A stretch of DNA of 38,593 nt from a virus. Lineage: Duplodnaviria > Heunggongvirae > Uroviricota > Caudoviricetes. The notes beneath the pieces were generated by a model. That model did no database searches. It was not told the DNA's origin and saw nothing but the letters and a program-made list of their open reading frames with translations. This document shows, in pieces, positions 1 through 37,658 of the stretch (position 1 is its first letter; the number at the start of each line of letters is the position of its first letter). The DNA lies in IMG/VR virus record IMGVR_UViG_2917865565_000005, positions 1-38,593 of that record; one strand, given 5' to 3'. The translations under genes were made by a program, and so were the position numbers.

Positions 1-1032
1 TCAAACAGTTGCTGTTGATGTTGGTAGTGTTGCCAGCGGATTAAACCGTAATGCAGTTTCCAGGTGATCCGGTGCCAGATGTGCGTAACGCATGGTCATT
101 TTTATGTCGTGATGTCCGAGGATTTTTTGCAAAGCAAGGATATTTCCACCCGACATCATGAAATGCGCCGCAAACGTATGGCGCAGAACGTGTGTCAGTT
201 GACCGCGAGGGAGCACGATAGACGTTTTTTCCATCACGGATAAAAATTGAAAATAGCAGTCTGTGAAGAAATTGAACCCATCAAGCGCCATGATCTCTTC
301 GTAAAGCTCTTTACTGATAGGGATGCTTCTGTTTTTCTTCCCCTTCGTTCTTACAAAGGTAATTCGGTATTTGGTCACCTGTGAGCGGGTAAGATTTACG
401 GCTTCTCGCCAGCGTGCGCCTGTGCTTAAGCATATTTTGACTACCAGAGCCAGAATTGGGTCCTGACGTTTGCAATCAGCCAGCAGTTCAACAATCTGCT
501 CATGGGTAAGCCATGCCATCTCTTTTTCTGCGATGGTGAATTTTCGCATGTTCTCCAGTGGGTTTGGATACGACCATTCGCCCAGGCGGGATAGTTCGCT
601 AAAAATACTACTTAGATAGCTTTGCTCCAGGTTAATGGTGACCGGGCTGGCTCCTTTCTTCCATTTCTCGCTGAAGTAGATCTCACCTGTCAGTCGTTTA
701 TCTCGATAATGGGCAAACATTTTAGATGTGAGATCGGTTGCAAGGGGATTGCCCAGAGCGTCAACCATCAGCAGCAATTTGTCATAGACATGCTGCCCAG
801 CAGTCAGTGATTTACCATGTAGCTTGAACCATAGCTCAACCACGTCTTTCAGTGTTCGACGATCTACTGATTCACCCAGCCAGGGCTTTGCTTCGGTTTC
901 TTCCATCGTGTGACGCTCAAAAGCCAGAGCTTCGCCTTTGGTGGCGAATTGTTTACGCACACGACGTCCACTACGTCCGGCGGGGTAACATTCGCAAAGC
1001 CATTTTCCTGTGGTGAGTTTTCGTACTGCCAT
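1..1032 (-). CDS. int: Phage tyrosine integrase (P2/186 family)
   Basis: 343-aa ORF; C-terminal tyrosine-recombinase catalytic region 'HVLRHTFAAHFMMSGGNILALQKILGHHDIKMTMRYAHL'; N-terminus resembles P2 Int as I recall it; stop codon is window bases 1-3, so attL lies just left of the window. Confidence 0.9.
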   Translation of the reverse strand: MAVRKLTTGKWLCECYPAGRSGRRVRKQFATKGEALAFERHTMEETEAKPWLGESVDRRTLKDVVELWFKLHGKSLTAGQHVYDKLLLMVDALGNPLATDLTSKMFAHYRDKRLTGEIYFSEKWKKGASPVTINLEQSYLSSIFSELSRLGEWSYPNPLENMRKFTIAEKEMAWLTHEQIVELLADCKRQDPILALVVKICLSTGARWREAVNLTRSQVTKYRITFVRTKGKKNRSIPISKELYEEIMALDGFNFFTDCYFQFLSVMEKTSIVLPRGQLTHVLRHTFAAHFMMSGGNILALQKILGHHDIKMTMRYAHLAPDHLETALRFNPLATLPTSTATV

Positions 1033-1105: not shown

Positions 1106-2878
1106 TCATACGTCAGGGGTAATCCAGTCGACTAAAGCCTCAATACTTTCGAAATCTGCACAGATATCTGAAAGAGGTTGTGTATCTGCTTTTGTTTTGA
1201 AATCAGCCCATACTGATTCATTTTTTTCTGTAAGACCCAAATGGTTTTCTATCGAACCGTTTAGCCAAATCCAAATATTTGCATTTCTCAGTTTTGCGGC
1301 TAATGATGACAAAAATTCTCTGGCGCCGGGCTTTTGAGACATAAGAGCAAATGCTTCAGCTGCGGTAGTGTTACTACCCTTTGTAGGCAAACCGGATCCA
1401 TCGAGAGTGCATTCTCCATTAGCATGCATACTTCTCAAGATTTCTTTTAGTCGTAAAATATCCTCGTCATTATGTTCTAAGAAGTTGTTCCTTATTGCAC
1501 CGCGGAACGCAAAATCTAAATCAACAATTGCTTTTGTAGGTATATCCATTGAATTTAGAATTTGCATCGTTTTAGATATACTTTCAACGGACCCTGTTTC
1601 AATTAGTGCTATTTGCATCTGACCTAATGTTTTATTTTTAACTTTGTTAAAAAATAAATGGGAGCAGAGTAGTCTCTGTTTTACCTTCTGTTAGTATTAC
1701 ATTGTTAGCAAATAAAACTTTTGACGACTGTGTTAATGAAAATAAATGGGTTGCTTGTGCTGGTCGTTGTTCGATTACTTTATTGACTGCTTCTTTTAAT
1801 GTTAATCTGCAATGAGTGCCACGCTGACTGTTTTTTCTGATTAATACAGTGTCTTTTGCTAAGTCAGAGGTAATCATTTGAGATGAATGGGTAGAGAAAA
1901 TTATTTGATATCCATGATGAGATAGTGTTTTTAGAGATTCTCTAATTTGTTCGATAGCAAATGGGTGAAGATATAACTCAGGTTCATCTATTAACAGTAG
2001 AGTAGTTGTTTTAATATCATCACCGTTGGTTATATCAGCTAAATGTCTTATTAGAGCCATCTGAATCGAACGCTGTGTGCCATGACCATAAGAAGAACAG
2101 TCACGAGCAATTCCGGGAAATGAATCTTCATATACTTTTACAGTTCCTGATTTAAATATATCCTTGAAGTCAGGGAGTTCGAAGTGTAGTTTTAAACTTA
2201 TCCCTGGGAAGAAATCAGCAACTTTACTACTTATTGAATTATCAATATCATTGAGGTCCGATATTCGTTTATTACCGGTTGCAGTCATTCTTCTGTTAAC
2301 GGCATTTAAATGGCTTAGTATCCTTTGAGTGTGCTTCTCTTCTATTTTGCAACTCAATTCTGCCAGCAACTTACCTATTGTAGTACCTGTTTTTGATTTT
2401 GAAGAATCATCCGCTGCATTTTCCATTGCACCTATACGTATTGGATCTGGAAATAAAGCTTTTATCGCATTCTCAATACCCGTTGGTGATGTCCTGAATT
2501 CGTTATTTTCTGGGTTTTTAATTAATAACCTGACGTCTTTTGCACTTTGAGCACCAACAATCTGTTGACGCTTAAATATCAATACCCCATCAATAATGTA
2601 GGGTGAAATTCTAGTTCTGTTTTCTTCTGTTAAAGCTGACAAAATATCTTCAGTAATACCCTTAACTGTACCTATAACTTCTATAGGGTTATCTGGATTA
2701 GTATAATCATCAGAGGACAAAAGTTTTTTTCTTAAAAAGCCATTCAATAGCATTTAAAATCGTTGACTTACCTGCATTGTTGTAACCTATTAAAGGCGTG
2801 AATGAAGAAAAAATTGATATCAATATCTTTGCAAGATCTAAAGTTTTTTATAGAAATCTTTGAAAGATGATGATTCAT
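1106..2878 (-). pseudogene. old: OLD-family ATPase-TOPRIM nuclease (P2 Old-like); reading frame broken at three homopolymer runs in this sequence, probably intact in reality
   Basis: Minus-strand reading from ATG 2878 (SD GGAGGAG 6 nt upstream): 'MNHHLSKISIKNFRSC', Walker A 'LIGYNNAGKSTILNAIEW', Walker B-like 'LLLIDEPELYLHP', TOPRIM 'VILTEGKTE' then 'AIVDLD' about 45 aa later. These lie in successive frames joined at A6 2808-2813, T7 2724-2730 (or A5 2734-2738) and A6 1649-1654; removing one base at each gives about 589 codons. ORF-track pieces are 1647..2753 and 1106..1618. Confidence 0.7.
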
Positions 2879-2921: not shown

Positions 2922-3860
2922 TTATTGTATTGTTAAGATGATGCTGGCTATAATTTGAATATCCTCAATGGAACACTCAAAATCCTTACTCCCACCAGAA
3001 ACAAGAATTTTGTTCTTAGGTAAACGAGTTAACTCTTTTAAAGATAACTCATTGTCAATTCCTACTAACCATTTTCCATCTCTAATTAGGTGAAATTCTT
3101 TATCACATATGACATGTTTTTCTCCATTGCTTACAAACATCAAACTGCTGGTTTCTTGCTTCGGAAGTAGACACCGATCCATGGATAAAAAACCTGACTC
3201 GACAAGCTCGCCATTGACCAAATTGAACTTATTTAAAATCACAGTGTTTTCTTTTTGTGAACCATTTGGCGTTTCGATTCCTGTAACTAGCCAGGTGAGG
3301 TCCGCTTTGGTTTCTAATGCGCATTTAATCACCCAATCCGCAGGGAAAGAATCTCGCATGTATCGTGTGGCTAATGTGCTTTTTGAAATACCAAGGTGAT
3401 CGGCTAAGGCTTGGCGGGTTTTAAACCCGTAAGCATTAACAATCCTCTCTATCGCGGCTTTTCCTCCGTTAGTAAGCTCAATGTGATTCTCAATGTGGCG
3501 CTTTAAGGATGATTGATGAGCGTTGCTGTTAAACCCCTCATGTGGGACTGTTTCATCATGTTGTTCCACATAAGGGGGGAAACTTTCTTCTGCATTGTTA
3601 GAACCAAAGGCCAGCCATTCTAGGGATGCGCCAGTTTCCATTGAACATATAACAACCCAATCAGCAGGGAAGGTATCGCGTGCATATCTATTAGCCATTG
3701 TACTTTGTGAAATACCAAGATGCTTACAGAAGGCTTGGCGTGATTTGAAACCATAGGCCTTGAGTATCCTCTCAATGACTTTTTGCCCTCCACGATTCTG
3801 CATGACCATAGCTTTCAGACTATCTTCGATATGGCGAAATGTGATTTTTTGAGTTGACAT
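2922..3860 (-). CDS. cI: CI-type immunity repressor (186 CI-like) with tandemly duplicated N-terminal HTH domain
   Basis: 312 aa; two copies of a 186-CI-like N-terminal domain ('ERILKAYGFKSRQAFCKHLGISQSTMANRYARDTFPADWVVICSMETGASLEWL' and 'ERIVNAYGFKTRQALADHLGISKSTLATRYMRDSFPADWVIKCALETKADLTWL') followed by a C-terminal domain; divergent from the apl-cII operon. Confidence 0.7.
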   Translation of the reverse strand: MSTQKITFRHIEDSLKAMVMQNRGGQKVIERILKAYGFKSRQAFCKHLGISQSTMANRYARDTFPADWVVICSMETGASLEWLAFGSNNAEESFPPYVEQHDETVPHEGFNSNAHQSSLKRHIENHIELTNGGKAAIERIVNAYGFKTRQALADHLGISKSTLATRYMRDSFPADWVIKCALETKADLTWLVTGIETPNGSQKENTVILNKFNLVNGELVESGFLSMDRCLLPKQETSSLMFVSNGEKHVICDKEFHLIRDGKWLVGIDNELSLKELTRLPKNKILVSGGSKDFECSIEDIQIIASIILTIQ

Positions 3861-3947
3861 ATTCTTTATGTGAACCTATTCTCCGTTTTGTGATGTTTTG
3901 TCACGATTAATACCGGCTCACCACAAGCCAATAGGAGATGTTGCATC
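3861..3947. promoter_or_regulatory. cI / apl intergenic switch region (expected lytic and lysogenic promoters and operators)
   Basis: 87-bp gap between divergent cI and apl starts; direct repeat TTTTGTGA / TTTTGTCA at about 3878-3900; position by analogy to the 186/P2 switch. Promoters not mapped. Confidence 0.4.
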
Positions 3948-4169
3948 ATGACCCCTAACATTTCAATAACTCTGAATACGCCACACGTCACAATTGAGCG
4001 TTATAGCGAACTTACTGGTCTTTCTATCGACACCATCAACGATATGCTGGCTGATGGTCGCATCCCTCGCCATCGCCTTCGGAAAGACAAGAAAAGAGAA
4101 AAGGTAATGATCAACCTTGCTGCTCTTACCGTTGATGCACTTACTGATTGCAATGTTGTATTCAACTAG
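3948..4169 (+). CDS. apl: Apl/Cox-like small HTH excisionase / transcriptional regulator
   Basis: 73-aa ORF, first gene of the rightward early operon, directly upstream of cII; HTH-like '[24 protein letters not shown]'; SD AGGAG 3933-3937. Confidence 0.5.
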
Positions 4170-4201
4170 TTCCATTTTGGGGTGCATCAGGAGTGTCGAC
4201 T

Positions 4202-4711
4202 ATGTTTGATTACCAAGTTTCCAAACATCCACATTTTGATGAAGCCTGTCGTGCATTTGCATTGCGCCACAACCTTGTGCAACTGGCAGAACGTGCAGGT
4301 ATGAATGTGCAGATTCTGCGGAACAAGCTGAATCCAGCTCAACCTCATTTATTAACCGCACCAGAAATCTGGTTGCTTACCGATCTGACTGAAGATTCAA
4401 CGCTGGTAGATGGCTTTCTGGCACAGATTCACTGCCTGCCATGTGTACCGATTAATGAGGTGGCAAAAGAGAAACTGCCGCATTACGTCATGAGTGCAAC
4501 TGCAGAGATAGGGCGTGTCGCGGCAGGTGCGGTTTCTGGCGATGTAAAAACCAGTGCAGGCCGTCGTGATGCGATCAGCAGCATTAACTCTGTTACACGA
4601 CTGATGGCGCTGGCTGCTGTTTCATTGCAGGCCCGTTTACAGGCTAATCCTGCGATGGCGAGTGCAGTTGATACCGTGACTGGCCTCGGTGCTTCATTCG
4701 GTTTGCTGTGA
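4202..4711 (+). CDS. cII: CII lysogeny-establishment activator (186 CII-like)
   Basis: From ATG 4202: '[24 protein letters not shown]...[25 protein letters not shown]...', closely matching 186 CII as I recall it; ORF track starts it at an upstream ATG (4148). Confidence 0.8.
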
Positions 4712-9636: not shown

Positions 9637-9679
9637 TTTACATCAGTAAGATTATTATATACTGTAAATATAAACAGTG
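9637..9679 (+). promoter_or_regulatory. SOS-type promoter with LexA box
   Basis: TACTGTAAATATAAACAGTG (9660-9679) fits CTGT-N8-ACAG with an AT-rich spacer; overlaps a sigma70-like promoter (-35 TTTACA 9637-9642, -10 TATACT 9658-9663); directly upstream of ATG 9721. Confidence 0.6.
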
Positions 9680-9720
9680 TTTATGTGTACAGTATTGCTT
9701 GTGGTGTCATAGGAGGAAAA

Positions 9721-9910
9721 ATGCAGGACTATTTTTTGGAGTCTTTGAAGCTCCAGCGCATTGATTTTTTTTCTTAAGCTTGTAGCGGCTAGTGAGTGTA
9801 GTGATGAAGAGAAGGGACTGGCCCTGCAGTGGGTTTCTGAACTGACAGATGAACTCATGGCAAAAATCAGAACCCACGAATACAACCGCTCAATGGATGT
9901 CATCAGTTGA
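9721..9910 (+). CDS. N-terminal portion of a Tum-like SOS-inducible antirepressor (frame broken at a T8 run)
   Basis: ATG 9721 with SD GGAGG 9712-9716; as given it stops after 18 codons (9721..9777); removing one T from T8 (9765-9772) extends it to TGA 9908-9910. Confidence 0.4.
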
Positions 9911-9920
9911 GGTGACTTTT

Positions 9921-10154
9921 ATGCGCATTGAAATAATGATCGATAAAGAGCAGAAGATTAGCCAGTCTACCTTGGACGCCCTTGAATCCGAGCTTTACCG
10001 CAATCTGCGCCCCCTGTATCCCAAAACGGTAATTCGTATCCGTAAAGGTAGCTCTAACGGTGTGGAACTGACCGGACTGCAACTGGATGAAGAAAGAAAA
10101 CAAGTGATGAAAATTATGCAGAAGGTGTGGGAAGACGACAGCTGGCTGCATTAA
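9921..10154 (+). CDS. DinI-like domain protein (probably the C-terminal domain of the Tum-like antirepressor)
   Basis: From ATG 9921: 'MRIEIMIDKEQKISQSTLDALESELYRNLRPLYPKTVIRIRKG...KIMQKVWEDDSWLH', same length and pattern as E. coli DinI (MRIEVTI...WESADDWF) as recalled. Confidence 0.8.
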   Translation: MRIEIMIDKEQKISQSTLDALESELYRNLRPLYPKTVIRIRKGSSNGVELTGLQLDEERKQVMKIMQKVWEDDSWLH

Positions 10155-33846: not shown

Positions 33847-34328
33847 TGATGGTGCTGGGATTGTACGTGTTTATGCTGCGCACCGTGCCGTATCAGGAGC
33901 TGCAGTATCAGCGCAGCTGGCGACATGCGGCTAACAGCCGGGTTAACCGACGCCCGTCAACGCAGTTTCTGGGACCGGATAACGACATGCTGACGCTTTC
34001 TGGCGTTCTTATGCCGGAGATAACAGGCGGCAGGCTGTCGTTGCTGGCACTGGAGCAGATGGCAGAACAGGGGAAAGCATGGCCTCTGATTGAAGGCAGC
34101 GGCACGATTTACGGCATGTATGTGATTGAGGGACTGAATCAGACTAAAACGGAGTTTTTCCGCGACGGTATGCCGCGCCGGGTTGAGTTCACCCTGTCGC
34201 TCAAACGGGTGGATGAATCCCTGTCCGATATGTTCGGTGATCTCAGTTCGCAGTTGAATAATCTGCAGGACACGGCAACATCTGCATTAAGCGATATCAG
34301 TAAAACGGTGGGAGGGCTGCTGTCGTGA
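33843..34328 (+). CDS. U: Tail protein gpU
   Basis: 161 aa after T, P2 U-like. Confidence 0.85.
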   Translation: MMMVLGLYVFMLRTVPYQELQYQRSWRHAANSRVNRRPSTQFLGPDNDMLTLSGVLMPEITGGRLSLLALEQMAEQGKAWPLIEGSGTIYGMYVIEGLNQTKTEFFRDGMPRRVEFTLSLKRVDESLSDMFGDLSSQLNNLQDTATSALSDISKTVGGLLS

Positions 34329-35425
34329 ATTTCAGCTCTGAACTGCTTAACAAAGGTAACAAAACTCCCGCATTCAGCATCAGTATTGAGGGCAGGGATA
34401 TCACCACTGTGCTGGATAACCGCCTGATGAGTCTGACGCTGACGGACAATCGGGGCTTTGAAGCGGACCAGCTTGATCTGGAACTGGATGATGCCGACGG
34501 AAAAATCGTGCTGCCGCGCCGTGGTGCGGTCATTACGCTGGCGCTGGGCTGGAAGGGGCAGCCGCTTTTCCCAAAAGGGGCATTCACGGTGGATGAGATT
34601 GAACACACTGGCGCACCGGACCGCCTGACCATCCGGGCGCGAAGTGCTGATTTTCGGGAAACGCTGAATACCCGCCGTGAAAAATCGTGGCACAAGACCA
34701 CGGTCGGGGAAGTGGTGAAGGAAATAGCTGCGCGTCACAAACTGAAGATGGCACTGGGTAAAGACCTGTCGGATAAAACCGTGGATCATATAGACCAGAC
34801 TAATGAGAGTGACGGCAGTTTTCTGATGCGGCTGGCGCGCCAGTACGGTGCTATTGCGTCGGTGAAAAATAGCAATCTGTTATTCATCCGGCAGGGACAG
34901 GGTAAAAGTGCCAGCGGTAAACCACTGCCGGTGATCACTATCACACGCAAGGACGGCGACAGTCACCGCTTTACCCTGGCAGATCGCGGAGCCTATACGG
35001 GCGTAATTGCCAGCTGGTTGCATACCCGCGAACCCACCAAGAAAGAAAGCACTACAGTGAAGCGTAAGCGCAGGACTAAGAAGCAGAAGAAAGAGCCAGA
35101 AGCGAAGCAGGGCGATTACCTTGTGGGGACGGATGAAAATGTGCTGGTACTTAATCGCACTTATGCCACCCGGAGCAACGCCGAACGGGCCGCGAAAATG
35201 CAGTGGGAACGACTGCAACGCGGTGTTGCGTCATTCTCGCTACAACTGGCGGAAGGTCGGGCAGATCTCTACACGGAAATGCCTGTGAAAGTCAGTGGCT
35301 TTAAACAGCCGATAGATGATGCGGAATGGACCATTACCACCCTGACGCATACAGTCAGCCCGGATAACGGTTTTACGACCAGTCTGGAGCTTGAAGTGAA
35401 GATTGATGATTTCGAAATGGAATGA
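34325..35425 (+). CDS. D: Tail / late control protein gpD
   Basis: 366 aa; 'LSLTLTDNRGFEADQLDLELDD' and 'VKVSGFK' match P2 D as recalled. Confidence 0.85.
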   Translation: MNFSSELLNKGNKTPAFSISIEGRDITTVLDNRLMSLTLTDNRGFEADQLDLELDDADGKIVLPRRGAVITLALGWKGQPLFPKGAFTVDEIEHTGAPDRLTIRARSADFRETLNTRREKSWHKTTVGEVVKEIAARHKLKMALGKDLSDKTVDHIDQTNESDGSFLMRLARQYGAIASVKNSNLLFIRQGQGKSASGKPLPVITITRKDGDSHRFTLADRGAYTGVIASWLHTREPTKKESTTVKRKRRTKKQKKEPEAKQGDYLVGTDENVLVLNRTYATRSNAERAAKMQWERLQRGVASFSLQLAEGRADLYTEMPVKVSGFKQPIDDAEWTITTLTHTVSPDNGFTTSLELEVKIDDFEME

Positions 35426-35970: not shown

Positions 35971-37658
35971 TTATCCGAGTCCTGGCCATACCATGACAAT
36001 GATTGTCCCGGCCAGCGTTAGCAGTACGTTAGCTATTGCATAAGTGCCCGCATAACCTAAGGCTGGGATGTTACTGCGTGCGGTGTCGCTGATGATCTCC
36101 ATTGCCGGAGCACAAGTACGCGCGCCCATCATCGCGCCGAACAGGAGTGCGCGGTTCATACGCAGTACATAAGCGCCGAACAGGAAGCAGATAACCACCG
36201 GCACCAGACTGACAATCAATCCGGCAATTAACATCTGACCACCGATCGCGCCCAGGCCGTTATTAATGCCGCTACCGGCGCTTAAACCAACGCCTGCCAT
36301 AAACACCATCAAGCCGAACTCTTTCACCATGCTTAACGCCCCCTGCGGAATGTAACCGAAGGTCGGGTGGTTAGCGCGCATAAAGCCCAACATAATGCCG
36401 GCGAATAACAAGCCAGCAGCGTTACCCATGCCAAAGCTAAATGTACTGAACTGGAAGGTAATCATCCCGATCATCAGGCCAATAACAAAGAACGCGCAGA
36501 ATGCCAGCAGGTCTGTGACCTGGCTGTGAATCGAGATAAAGCCGATGCGGTCAGCAATGGTTTTCACGCGACGGGCATCGCCGCTCACCTGTAAAACATC
36601 ACCTTTATTAAGCACAACGTTGTCATCAATTGGCATCTCAATCTGGCTGCGGATGACGCGGTTAAGGAAGCAACCGTGATCGGTCAACTTTAGTTGTGCC
36701 AGACGTTTACCTACCGCGTTATGGTTTTTGACGACGACCTCTTCAGTGACGATACGCATGTCGAGAAGGTCACGATCAAAAACTTCTTTACCGTTACGGA
36801 AGCTGGGATCGAGGCGGGCGTGGGCGTCTGGATATCCCACTAACGCTATCTCATCGCCCATTTGCAGTACGGCGTCGCCATCTGGATTTGCCAGAATCCC
36901 GTTACGACGAATACGTTCAATGTAGCAACCGGTTTGACGATAAATACCCAATTCACGCAGATTTTTGCCGTCGGTCCAGGCCACCAGCTCCGGGCCGACA
37001 CGGTAGGCGCGGATCACCGGCAAATAAACTTTGCGGCTGGCATCGGTGTCCAGGCCACGTTCGCGAGCGATTTGTTGGGCGCTGGTCTGTAAATCCTGAT
37101 GTTGCAACTTCGGTAAATAACGTGCACCGACAATTAAACTCACCAGGCCAATTAAATAAGTTAACGCATACCCAAGGCTTAGATTATCCAGTGCTGTGGA
37201 GAGCTGTCCGCTTTCCATACCGGAATGGCGTAATGTGTCGCCAGCACCGACCAGAACCGGTGTCGATGTCATGGAGCCAGCCAACATACCGGCCGTCAGA
37301 CCGATATCCCAGCCAAACAGCTTACCCAACCCTAAGGCGATCGCCAGCGCACTGCTAACCATCACCAGAGCTAACATTAGGTAATTTTTCCCATCGCGGA
37401 AAAAAATGGAAAAAAAAGTTGGGTCCGGCTTCGACCCCGACGCAGAAAATAAACAACATAAAGCCAAGATTAAGCGCGTCGGTGTTAATGCTGAAATGTT
37501 GTTGCCCTAATAGTAACGATACGACTAAAAACGCCAATGGAATTACCCAGTTGGATTGAACCAAGTCGTAATTTTCCTAGACATAGTCCAAGCGCAAGGA
37601 CTACAAATAATAACAGAATGTAATTCCCATTTAACAATTCGGCGACGTTTATATTCAC
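35971..37658 (-). pseudogene. ybjL: Putative transport protein YbjL (host); reading frame broken twice at homopolymers in this sequence
   Basis: Three frame segments encode one contiguous YbjL-like protein; joints at A8 37410-37417 (gives '...[14 protein letters not shown]' versus the other frame '...[14 protein letters not shown]') and A5 37527-37531; span is 562 codons plus 2 extra bases; start GTG 37656-37658. Confidence 0.85.

What the first reader, a model, noticed from the sequence alone, without database searches (positions are those of the whole stretch)
2922..3860. Immunity repressor carries a tandem duplication of its N-terminal DNA-binding domain
Two about 60-aa segments (roughly aa 26-86 and 135-195, DNA about 3603-3785 and 3276-3458) are roughly 60 percent identical and each resembles the 186 CI N-terminal HTH domain; a single C-terminal domain follows. 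186 CI is about 192 aa as I recall, this protein is 312 aa. A single chain with two DNA-binding heads could change operator recognition and immunity specificity.
Basis: seen in the sequence. Interest (0 to 1): 0.5.

Follow-up and report, generated by a model that had tools for sequence, protein, structure and literature searches.

The report
Two-headed 186-type phage immunity repressor
The prophage's immunity repressor does carry two DNA-binding heads on one oligomerising tail, but this is an old, widespread fusion of two different head types (also in the cultured phage PsP3), not a one-off duplication, and its function has not been studied in the literature I could search.

Summary
ORF 2922-3860(-) encodes 312 aa with two Pfam PF07022 HTH heads (aa 22-89 and 130-197; 40/68 identical), a roughly 38-aa disordered linker and one PF16452 C-terminal domain that matches the 186 CI fold.

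It is not an artefact and not a recent duplication. Synonymous sites between the heads are saturated. Each head is closer to the head of a single-head CI (89% and 86%) than to its partner (63%). About 45 protein clusters in Enterobacterales share the architecture, as do phages 4LV2017 and PsP3; Shewanella proteins seem to have gained it separately.

The end of the linker matches the N-terminus of a complete single-head CI, so the gene looks like a foreign head fused onto a whole cI. In all three head-1 classes examined, the operators at the lytic promoter follow the type of head 1. The window also keeps one strong operator of head 2's type (3246-3262), at the position homologous to 186 FL.

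Best reading: a bivalent repressor in which both heads bind DNA, inferred from sequence only. It is a new variant of a known kind and moderately interesting.

The parts
2922..3860 (-). cI gene: two-headed 186-type immunity repressor, 312 aa counted from the first ATG (possibly 293-295 aa if Met18 or Met20 is the real start)
   Evidence: ORF; Pfam 2x PF07022 plus PF16452; 186 CI structure 2fjr matches aa 136-308 at E 1e-27; 98% identical single CDS in 14 E. coli genomes.
3798..3860 (-). N-terminal extension (codons 1-21), which overlaps the pR -35 hexamer and operator O1
   Evidence: Synonymous divergence is low (pS 0.17-0.37, against 0.26-0.75 in head 1 for the same sequence pairs: lower in all four, far lower in three, where head 1 is 0.73-0.75) and dN/dS is 0.4-1.0. 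This points to constraint on the DNA rather than the protein. The same extension occurs in the single-head 'Q-type' CIs of L052 and L058.
3594..3797 (-). Head 1 (aa 22-89), HTH of the 'Q' class, recognition helix SQSTMANRYARD
   Evidence: It is 89% identical to the head of single-head CI P0082. Purifying selection: pN 0.03-0.12, with pS near saturation (0.73-0.75) in three of the four comparisons and 0.26 against the close relative 4LV2017. AF2 pLDDT about 80-90.
3474..3593 (-). Inter-head linker (aa 90-129); it contains the in-frame direct repeat CTCAATGTG x2 at 3477-3497
   Evidence: AF2 pLDDT is below 50 for aa 89-126 and pTM is 0.40. Only 18-33% aa identity among relatives. In most tandems the linker end matches the N-terminus of KN-type single-head CIs. 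Repeat found.
3270..3473 (-). Head 2 (aa 130-197), HTH of the 'KT' class, recognition helix SKSTLATRYMRD, in the canonical position next to the C-terminal domain
   Evidence: It is 86% identical to the head of single-head CI P0038. pN 0.13-0.21 with high or saturated pS (0.54-0.89). pLDDT about 87-94.
2925..3233 (-). C-terminal oligomerisation domain (aa 210-312)
   Evidence: PF16452, E 1.7e-23. The model matches the 186 CI C-terminal domain 2fkd_A with TM 0.89 and rmsd 1.2 A. This module is 67-68% identical to P0036 (single-head) and P0003 (another tandem type) but only 32-42% to other Q-type tandems, so modules are shuffled.
3246..3262 (+). FL-like distal operator GTTTTCTTTTTGTGAAC, inside the codons of the head 2 to C-terminal-domain linker
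   Evidence: Best hit in the whole 38.6-kb window to a weight matrix built only from operators of KT-type single-head phages: 20.6 bits, against a maximum of 17.7 in 30 shuffles. It is the positional homologue (-614 = -236 - 378) of the FL site of KT singles and of 186 FL at -285. The half-sites are conserved while the spacer and flanking codons diverge.
3830..3846 (+). Candidate operator O1 (TATGGCGAAATGTGATT), upstream of the pR -35
   Evidence: 18.6 bits with a Q-type matrix built from other loci, against a shuffle maximum of 16.7. Part of the only cluster of three TGTGA[AT] motifs within 80 bp in the window.
3859..3875 (+). Candidate operator O2 (ATATTCTTTATGTGAAC), between the pR -35 and -10
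   Evidence: 12.7 bits with the Q-type matrix and 12.5 bits with the KT-type matrix, where it is the third-best hit in the window. Neither score is significant alone; the position is homologous to site 2 of all related switches.
3879..3895 (+). Candidate operator O3 (TTCTCCGTTTTGTGATG), just downstream of the pR -10
   Evidence: 19.4 bits, the top Q-type matrix hit in the window. Conserved in all Q-type loci.
3854..3882 (+). Predicted lytic promoter pR (-35 TTGACA at 3854-3859, -10 TATTCT at 3877-3882). The -35 overlaps the cI ATG on the other strand
   Evidence: Consensus scan, 10 of 12 matches. Conserved across tandem, Q-type and KN-type switches. By analogy with the annotated 186 pR.
3948..4169 (+). 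apl/cox-like first gene of the lytic operon (73 aa, no Pfam hit)
   Evidence: ORF; no family; same position as 186 apl; about 98% nucleotide identity to Klebsiella phage 4LV2017.
4202..4711 (+). cII (186-type lysogeny activator)
   Evidence: PF06892 Phage_CP76, E 3e-42.
9660..10154 (+). LexA box (TACTGTAAATATAAACAGTG, 9660-9679) followed by a Tum-like gene with a DinI-like C-terminus, apparently split over three frames at homopolymer runs. Presumed SOS antirepressor acting on this CI
   Evidence: The only CTGT-N8-ACAG in the window. DinI domain, E 1e-22. Frame analysis. In 186, induction works through the LexA-controlled antirepressor Tum (PMC7708051). Its action on this CI is inferred.

Best explanation
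This is a bivalent 186-type CI immunity repressor. One PF16452 C-terminal domain has the fold that in 186 builds dimers and a 14-mer wheel. It carries the usual HTH head next to it (head 2, KT class). A second, different HTH head (head 1, Q class) hangs on a roughly 38-residue disordered tether at the N-terminus.

The gene most likely arose by in-frame fusion of a Q-type head, together with its own pR and operator DNA, onto an essentially complete cI of another immunity class. Later homologous exchange then shuffled the heads and C-terminal domains.

Proposed mechanism (inferred, not shown): both heads bind DNA.
- Head 1 recognises the pR-proximal sites O1 and O3, which contain TGTGAW and are inherited together with it. 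It therefore sets the prophage's own immunity.
- Head 2 recognises 186 FL/FR-type 17-bp sites (GWTCAC-N5-GTGAWC). These include the strong FL-like site at 3246-3262 inside cI, and perhaps O2.
- The oligomer can therefore hold pR and a distal site together, or wrap them, through two kinds of contact. Specificity becomes a combination of two modules.
For: Architecture and folding.

Both heads are kept by selection. pN is 0.03-0.12 for head 1 and 0.13-0.21 for head 2, against saturated or high pS. The linkers drift freely. Both recognition helices are nearly invariant across about 45 clusters.

Fusion origin:
- The linker end (xPxEIxINPNQGGK) equals the N-terminus of KN-type single-head CIs, MSTSKYPNEIKINPNQGGK.
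- Each head's nearest relative is the head of a single-head CI.

The operator type at pR follows head 1 in all three tandem classes:
- Q+KT and Q+KN tandems share the Q-type site pattern (spacing 29 and 20 bp) with Q-type singles.
- The KT+KN tandem L056 has the KT pattern, with sites at +1, +30 and +60.
- The SS+KN tandem L057 has its own CTCAC-N5-GTGAG sites.
- The palindrome specific to KN singles is absent from tandem loci.

Head 2 has a cognate site. 3246-3262 is the best KT-matrix hit in the window, scores above every shuffle, and lies at the position homologous to 186 FL.

Against Klebsiella phage 4LV2017, the heads (93% and 78% aa identity) and the switch DNA (about 98% identical from the operator region through apl; 93% mean over the whole aligned stretch) travel together. 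The C-terminal domain is replaced (29% aa identity).

The architecture recurs in the PsP3 lineage and, apparently independently, in Shewanella.
Against: - No binding data exist; every operator assignment is by sequence comparison.
- Q-type single-head CIs have the same pR site pattern. Head 2 is therefore not needed for pR recognition as such, and its role rests mainly on one distal site.
- That FL-like site is absent from the other Q-type tandems examined (L002, L054, L055), so it cannot be the general reason head 2 is kept.
- Operator type tracking head 1 is also what simple genetic linkage would produce.
- The Q-type sites show no clear dyad symmetry, which is unexpected for a symmetric pair of heads.
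- No FR-like site was found.
- Wheel formation by this C-terminal domain is assumed from fold similarity only.
Confidence: 0.5

Rival explanations
1. Stacked immunity. The two heads serve two different sets of targets. Head 1 represses the prophage's own pR. Head 2, with the C-terminal domain, keeps the ability to bind the operators of heteroimmune KT/KN-type 186-like phages. One repressor then makes the lysogen immune to two immunity classes.
For: Head 2 has the same recognition helix as the KT single-head CIs and is 86% identical to one of them. Its type of operator is nearly absent from the prophage's own pR, yet it is under purifying selection. Tandems combine head classes that also exist as separate immunity types (Q, KT, KN, SS). 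The architecture has evolved repeatedly.
Against: There is no test of cross-immunity and no co-occurrence statistics. Repression by 186-type CIs depends on cooperative arrays of sites, so an identical helix does not guarantee repression of a foreign switch. The window keeps an internal site for head 2, so a role within the prophage itself is sufficient.
Confidence: 0.2
2. Only head 1 is a working operator reader. Head 2 is kept for a job other than specific DNA binding, for example correct geometry or dimer contacts next to the C-terminal domain, non-specific DNA affinity on the wheel, or the docking surface for the Tum-like antirepressor.
For: The pR operator type follows head 1 in every class. 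Q-type single-head CIs manage the same pR without a second head. Most tandem loci show no clear head-2-type palindrome. A LexA-controlled Tum-like gene is present.
Against: The solvent-exposed recognition helix of head 2 is as conserved as in single-head CIs, which a purely structural role does not require. A significant head-2-type site sits at the FL-homologous position. Tandems with a KN-type head 2 keep a KN-like TCTCAnTTGGGnAC element in the linker codons.
Confidence: 0.2
3. Intramolecular pseudo-dimer. Heads 1 and 2 of one chain sit side by side on a single asymmetric operator, each reading one half. Each subunit would then behave like a natural 'single-chain' repressor dimer.
For: The pR sites of Q-type switches are asymmetric: a conserved right half TGTGAW and a non-matching left half. 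A 38-residue flexible linker could allow such an arrangement.
Against: Single-head Q-type CIs have the same asymmetric sites. AF2 gives no confident head-to-head packing (pTM 0.40). No conserved left-half motif matches head 2's known half-site.
Confidence: 0.08
4. Artefact or decaying gene: an assembly or sequencing error, or a pseudogene fusion, with no functional two-headed protein.
For: The window carries single-base homopolymer insertions in the adjacent OLD-family nuclease gene and probably in the tum-like gene. Its base-level accuracy is therefore imperfect.
Against: cI has no indel relative to 14 complete genomes. The architecture is conserved down to 40% identity under purifying selection. 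It is also present in isolated or induced phages, namely PsP3, SEN1, SW9, Midge and 4LV2017.
Confidence: 0.02

Closest known systems
Coliphage 186 CI repressor (192 aa; PDB 2FJR and 2FKD)
   Same: Same two Pfam families. The C-terminal domain has the same fold (TM 0.89). Same gene position in the cI-int operon, facing apl-cII. Three sites around pR and an FL-type site in the codons of the head-to-C-terminal-domain linker. A LexA-controlled Tum-like gene is present.
   Different: It has two heads per subunit instead of one. The extra head is of another sequence class and sits on a disordered 38-aa tether. The pR -35 overlaps the cI start codon. The pR sites are asymmetric TGTGAW sites rather than the 186 inverted repeats. 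FL lies about 600 bp from pR instead of about 285 bp. No FR site was found.
CI of Salmonella phage PsP3 (286 aa) and relatives (SEN1, SW9, SI22, Midge)
   Same: Also 2x PF07022 plus PF16452, in a cultured 186-like phage. This shows the two-headed design works in a viable phage.
   Different: It is a different lineage, with about 30% identity between that lineage and Q-type tandems of the window's kind. The head classes and switch region differ, and the cox/apl analogue is unrelated. Its extra length was described in 2011 as a 'longer C-terminal domain' (PMC3448106). I found no paper that describes it as a second head.
Single-head Q-type (207-209 aa), KT-type (185-191 aa) and KN-type (196-202 aa) CIs of enterobacterial 186-like prophages
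   Same: They are the apparent parents of the modules. Head 1 is 84-89% identical to Q-type singles, which also share the pR layout. Head 2 is 81-86% identical to KT and KN singles. The C-terminal domain is 67% identical to a KT single.
   Different: One head each.
Engineered single-chain tandem HTH repressors (for example single-chain 434 repressor); recalled from my own knowledge, not checked here
   Same: Two HTH domains joined covalently in one chain, so that specificities can be combined.
   Different: Those are artificial, lack an oligomerising wheel domain, and place both heads on one operator. That arrangement is not supported here (pTM 0.40).
Monomeric mycobacteriophage immunity repressor that reads an asymmetric site with two domains (PMC9283540), and the P2 C repressor that binds direct repeats (PMC2995052)
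   Same: They are precedents for phage immunity repressors that recognise non-palindromic sites (titles and abstracts seen).
   Different: The protein families are unrelated, and the second domain is not a repeat of the HTH head.

Membership tests
186-type CI immunity repressor (PF07022 + PF16452) | N-terminal Phage_CI_repr HTH domain | tested here: met
   PF07022, E 2.8e-58, present twice (aa 22-89 and 130-197).
186-type CI immunity repressor (PF07022 + PF16452) | C-terminal Phage_CI_C domain with the 186 CI C-terminal fold | tested here: met
   PF16452, E 1.7e-23. The AF2 model matches 2fkd_A with TM 0.89 and rmsd 1.2 A.
186-type CI immunity repressor (PF07022 + PF16452) | First gene of the leftward lysogenic operon upstream of int, facing an apl/cox-like gene and a 186-type cII | tested here: met
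   int 1-1032(-), cI 2922-3860(-), 73-aa ORF 3948-4169(+), cII (PF06892) 4202-4711(+). Same order as annotated in 186. An OLD-family nuclease gene is inserted between cI and int.
186-type CI immunity repressor (PF07022 + PF16452) | Cluster of three CI sites over pR plus flanking distal sites (FL, FR) | tested here: inconclusive
   Three candidate sites lie at the positions expected relative to pR. Two score above all shuffles. An FL-like site is significant. No FR-like site was found. None is verified experimentally.
186-type CI immunity repressor (PF07022 + PF16452) | Assembly into dimers and a 14-mer wheel that wraps or loops DNA | not testable with these tools
   Only monomer fold similarity is available. 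The wheel is described for 186 in 10.1101/2021.10.29.466366.
186-type CI immunity repressor (PF07022 + PF16452) | Induction by a LexA-controlled antirepressor (Tum) rather than by RecA-mediated self-cleavage | tested here: inconclusive
   A perfect LexA box at 9660-9679 precedes a DinI-like/Tum-like ORF that is interrupted in this assembly. Interaction with CI was not tested.
Two-headed CI sub-architecture (2x PF07022 + PF16452) | Two intact HTH heads in one ORF, separated by a variable linker and followed by one C-terminal domain | tested here: met
   Met by the window protein, by about 45 clusters at 90% identity, by at least 13 full-length representatives at 50% identity, and by phages 4LV2017 and PsP3.
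Recent in-place tandem duplication | The two copies are each other's closest relatives, with low synonymous divergence | tested here: not met
   pS between the heads is 0.72 and third-position identity is 40%. Each head is 86-89% identical to a single-head CI head but only 63% to its partner. By contrast, the heads of Shewanella protein P0221 are each other's nearest relatives at 70%.

The most novel reading that the evidence does not exclude
Head fusion is a recurrent way for 186-like phages to 'stack' immunities. A single repressor wheel carries two classes of DNA-reading heads. It silences its own lytic promoter through the tethered outer head. Through the inner head it also binds the operators of a second, heteroimmune class of 186-like phages. 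It may in addition bridge pR to a distal intragenic site. New immunity specificities and cross-immunities would then arise by shuffling head modules rather than by point mutation.
Probability: 0.2. Interest if true: 0.65.

Novelty: new variant of a known kind. Interest (0 to 1): 0.45.

Why it matters
Phage 186 CI is one of the few repressors whose higher-order mechanism is understood: a 14-mer wheel that wraps pR and loops to FL and FR. A natural, common version with twice as many heads, of two kinds and one on a long tether, asks directly how operator grammar, cooperativity and immunity specificity depend on head number and placement.

The variants are ready-made experimental material. Matched single-head and two-head relatives share pR regions or C-terminal domains. 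If the second head confers cross-immunity or distal bridging, it would explain how immunity types diversify by module exchange in P2/186-like prophages. These prophages are very common in E. coli, Salmonella and Klebsiella.

Practically, genome annotation calls all these proteins 'phage repressor protein CI' and says nothing about the architecture. The one paper I found that noticed the extra length attributed it to the C-terminal domain.

Tried and rejected
- **FR-like operator.** I first took the conserved TAGTTCCATTTTGRGR element between apl and cII (window about 4170-4190) for a head-2-type FR operator. It is conserved in all head classes, so it is more likely part of the pE/cII region. 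Rejected.
- **GTGA-N7-TCAC at 3890-3904.** It looked like an inverted-repeat operator. However, the TGTCACGA half belongs to a framework shared with KN-type switches, and the spacing varies between 7 and 8. It is not used as evidence.
- **KN-type palindrome.** GTTCCCATTTGGGGAC gives no match in the window with up to 3 mismatches and none in tandem loci.
- **Generic pattern GWTCAC-N5-GTGAWC.** It is not enriched in the window: 5 hits found against 4.1 expected. Only the weight-matrix scan singled out 3246-3262.
- **Scan of species-representative genomes**. It returned mostly single-head CIs and only two tandems. These served as controls but not for tandem diversity.
- **AF2 on the monomer**. 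It gave no inter-domain packing, so it could not decide between head arrangements. No coordinates or PAE were available, and complexes with DNA or oligomers cannot be modelled with these tools.
- **PsP3 switch region**. It showed no repeat pattern I could interpret.
- **Literature searches**. They found no description of a two-headed 186-type CI.
- **Co-occurrence test of cross-immunity.** This was not feasible because genome hit lists are capped.
- **O2 and head-2 type.** O2 appears to differ between tandems with KT-type and KN-type head 2. The loci fall into only two lineages, so I do not count this as covariation.
Full report
**1. The observation**

The ORF 2922..3860 on the minus strand is open for 312 codons. 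Pfam finds the phage CI HTH domain PF07022 twice (whole-protein E 2.8e-58) and the CI C-terminal domain PF16452 once, at aa 210-308 (E 1.7e-23).

The two halves align with 44/78 identities, E 4e-32. Ungapped, 40 of 68 residues are identical, and none of 100,000 shuffles reaches that. The solved 186 CI structure (2fjr) aligns to aa 136-308 at E 1e-27. 186 CI itself is 192 aa and aligns with head 2 plus the C-terminal domain, and again with head 1.

**2. Not an artefact**

- Fourteen complete E. coli genomes carry a 98% identical stretch in which the gene is annotated as one CDS of the same length.
- Of the 120 best protein clusters at 90% identity, about 45 have two heads. They are 227-330 aa long (most 290-330), with about 1,590 member sequences by my tally. 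They come from E. coli, Salmonella, Klebsiella, Citrobacter, Enterobacter, Kosakonia and Edwardsiella, at identities down to 40%.
- In a search of 1.84 billion representatives at 50% identity with a head-only profile, the whole family is small (332 hits). At least 13 full-length representatives have two heads.
- Two-headed CIs occur in deposited phage genomes. One group is Klebsiella phage 4LV2017 and its relatives. A second, distant lineage includes the cultured Salmonella phage PsP3, plus SEN1, SW9, SI22 and Midge. Pfam confirms two PF07022 domains plus PF16452 in both PsP3 and 4LV2017.
- A caution about the window. The neighbouring OLD-family nuclease gene has three single-base insertions, all in homopolymer runs, relative to an intact 589-aa homologue. 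The tum-like gene also looks frameshifted. cI has no such lesion.

**3. Not a recent tandem duplication**

- The two heads are 62% identical in DNA, with only 40% identity at third codon positions and pS 0.72.
- The heads of this family fall into a few discrete classes defined by nearly invariant recognition helices:
  - Q: SQSTMANRYARD
  - KT: SKSTLATRYMRD
  - KN: SKSTLANRY[ML]RD
  - SS: SSSTLANRYTRD
- Each class also occurs as the only head of single-head CIs. Q singles are 207-209 aa, KT singles 185-191 aa and KN singles 196-202 aa.
- The window protein is Q+KT. Other tandems are Q+KN, SS+KN and KT+KN.
- Head 1 of the window is 89% identical to the head of the single-head CI P0082. Head 2 is 86% identical to that of P0038. 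The two heads are only 63% identical to each other. A neighbour-joining tree of domains gives the same picture.
- In most tandems the residues before head 2 (for example KYPNEISVNPNQGGK) reproduce the N-terminus of KN-type single-head CIs, MSTSKYPNEIKINPNQGGK. The junction therefore lies at about codon 5 of a complete cI.
- Modules are exchanged freely. The N-terminus plus head 1 is 91% identical to tandem P0005. The C-terminal domain is 67-68% identical to a KT single (P0036) and to an SS+KN tandem (P0003), but only 32-42% to other Q tandems.
- In Shewanella proteins the two heads are each other's closest relatives (70% in P0221). That suggests a separate origin of the architecture there.

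**4. Both heads look functional**

- Against four tandem relatives, head 1 has pN 0.03-0.12 and head 2 has pN 0.13-0.21. pS is high or saturated. The linkers keep only 6-33% aa identity.
- AF2 with 41 homologues gives three well-folded domains (pLDDT about 80-96), a disordered linker (aa 89-126, pLDDT below 50) and pTM 0.40. There is no confident packing between the domains.
- The C-terminal domain of the model superposes on that of 186 CI (2fkd_A) with TM 0.89 and rmsd 1.2 A.

**5. The switch DNA**

- The 186 record annotates three CI sites over pR, plus FL (CTTCACTTAATGTGAAT, 285 bp inside cI) and FR (ATTCACTTTATGTGAAT).
- KT-type single-head prophages have three 17-bp GWTCAC-N5-GTGAWC-like sites at +1, +30 and +60 from the cI ATG. 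They also have an FL site at -236.
- KN-type singles have a characteristic GTYCCC-N4-GGGRAC palindrome after the -10.
- In the window, pR is predicted with -35 TTGACA at 3854-3859, overlapping the cI ATG, and -10 TATTCT at 3877-3882.
- Three TGTGA[AT] motifs at 3840, 3869 and 3889 form the only such cluster in the 38.6-kb window.
- A weight matrix built from Q-type sites of other loci scores O3 (3879-3895) at 19.4 bits and O1 (3830-3846) at 18.6 bits. The shuffle maximum is 16.7. O2 (3859-3875) scores 12.7 bits.
- The same layout, with spacing of 29 and 20 bp, is found in Q-type single-head prophages (L052, L058) and in all Q-type tandems.
- The KT+KN tandem of Edwardsiella (L056) has a KT-type pR. 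The SS+KN tandem of Kosakonia (L057) has its own CTCAC-N5-GTGAG sites.
- So the pR operators follow the class of head 1 in all three tandem classes. The KN palindrome is missing from tandems whose head 2 is KN.
- Codons 1-21 of cI, which overlie O1 and the -35, have unusually low synonymous divergence and dN/dS near 0.4-1. This fits DNA-level constraint. It also leaves open that translation starts at Met18 or Met20.

**6. A site for head 2**

- A matrix built only from the operators of KT-type single-head phages has its best hit in the whole window at 3246-3262 (GTTTTCTTTTTGTGAAC). The score is 20.6 bits, against a shuffle mean of 14.3 and maximum of 17.7.
- This site lies in the codons of the linker between head 2 and the C-terminal domain. 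That is exactly the position homologous to the FL of KT singles (-614 = -236 - 378) and to 186 FL.
- Across relatives the two half-sites are kept, while the spacer and the flanking codons diverge.
- The other Q-type tandems examined (L002, L054, L055) lack this site.
- Tandems with a KN-type head 2 keep a KN-like TCTCAnTTGGGnAC element in their linker codons. This is the former pR-proximal site of the recipient cI, but coding constraint could also explain it.

**7. Comparison with Klebsiella phage 4LV2017**

- Its CI is 93% identical in head 1, 33% in the linker, 78% in head 2 (with an identical recognition helix) and 29% in the C-terminal domain.
- The DNA from the operator region through apl is about 98% identical, and the whole aligned stretch averages 93%.
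- Both heads therefore travel with the operator region as one immunity module, and the oligomerisation domain is swapped.

**8. Interpretation**

The best-supported reading is a bivalent 186-type repressor.
- The inner head, in the canonical position, reads FL/FR-type sites.
- The outer, tethered head reads the pR-proximal sites that came with it.
- I put this at about 0.5.

The rivals are listed in the Rival explanations section:
- A head 2 that mainly provides immunity against a second class of phages (0.2).
- A head 2 kept for a role other than specific DNA binding (0.2).
- An intramolecular pseudo-dimer on asymmetric sites (0.08).
- An artefact (0.02).

Everything about binding is inferred from sequence. 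The oligomeric state is assumed from the fold.

**9. What is known**

- In the library I could search, I found no description of a two-headed 186-type CI.
- Nilsson and co-workers noted that the CI of PsP3 and of one E. coli prophage is longer, but they ascribed this to 'a longer C-terminal domain' (PMC3448106).
- Databases name these proteins simply 'phage repressor protein CI'.
- The wheel model, the FL and FR sites and the Tum antirepressor are established for 186 (10.1101/2021.10.29.466366; PMC7708051).

**10. Verdict**

The finding is real and its description is accurate. The 'duplication' is better described as an ancient, recurrent fusion of two head classes. The architecture is common rather than peculiar to this window. 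It is a new, functionally uncharacterised variant of a well-known repressor type. It is of moderate interest, mainly to people working on phage switches and immunity evolution.

Noticed in passing
window 1106-2876 (-): An OLD-family ATP-dependent nuclease gene (AAA_15/AAA_21 plus an OLD-like TOPRIM domain) lies between cI and int. It is broken into three ORFs by single-base insertions at 1649, 2724 and 2808, all in homopolymer runs, relative to the intact 589-aa gene of E. coli CP028166. Either the assembly has homopolymer errors or the defence gene is decaying.
   Followed up: partly
window 9660-10154 (+): A perfect LexA box (TACTGTAAATATAAACAGTG) is followed by a Tum-like reading frame whose pieces lie in three frames: MQDYFLESLKLQRIDFF..., then ...LVAASECSDEEKGLALQWVSELTDELMAKI..., then a DinI-like C-terminus. 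The frame changes fall at a T-run and an A-run. It is probably the SOS antirepressor gene, frameshifted in this sequence.
   Followed up: partly
window 3477-3497 (+): There is an exact direct repeat CTCAATGTG x2, 12 bp apart, in the inter-head linker codons (peptide HIENHIEL). It could be a small in-frame duplication or a leftover regulatory element. It is not conserved in relatives.
   Followed up: partly
loci L017-L045 (Xenorhabdus and Photorhabdus species genomes): About 28 species carry a 204-206-aa single-head CI with an almost identical N-terminus (MKNTNIEIKMGADSGGRPAIERLV...) and the helix SKSTMANRY. Such conservation across species is unusual for an immunity repressor. It may mark a domesticated P2-like element, for example a tailocin regulator.
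   Followed up: no
L005 (Dryocola sp. BD586, gene at 4001; P0041) and P0050: These are two-headed proteins of 227-229 aa that stop before the C-terminal domain. They could be truncated pseudogenes or 'heads-only' proteins.
   Followed up: no
between cI and int in window, L053, L054, L055, L056, L057 and L058: The cargo at this position varies: an OLD-family nuclease (window, L053), GmrSD_N plus HEPN (L054), or unannotated 295-327-aa ORFs (L055-L058). This fits the reported P2-like hotspot for anti-phage systems (PMC9122126, seen).
   Followed up: no
L059 (JGI metagenome contig, Q-type single-head CI): In this locus the genes facing cI are small unknown ORFs and a ParA/CbiA-family ATPase, not apl-cII-fil, and the usual TTGACAT at the cI start is altered. 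It may be a plasmid-prophage or a rearranged element.
   Followed up: no
window about 4170-4190, and the same place in all related loci: The element TAGTTCCATTTTGRGR between apl and cII is conserved across all head classes (186 itself has FR there instead). It probably belongs to the pE/CII control region rather than being a CI operator.
   Followed up: partly
window 35971-37467 (-): The last phage gene seen is gpD (34325-35425). It is followed by a host-type Asp-Al_Ex/TrkA_C transporter gene, so the right prophage end and attachment site should lie near 35.4-35.9 kb.
   Followed up: no
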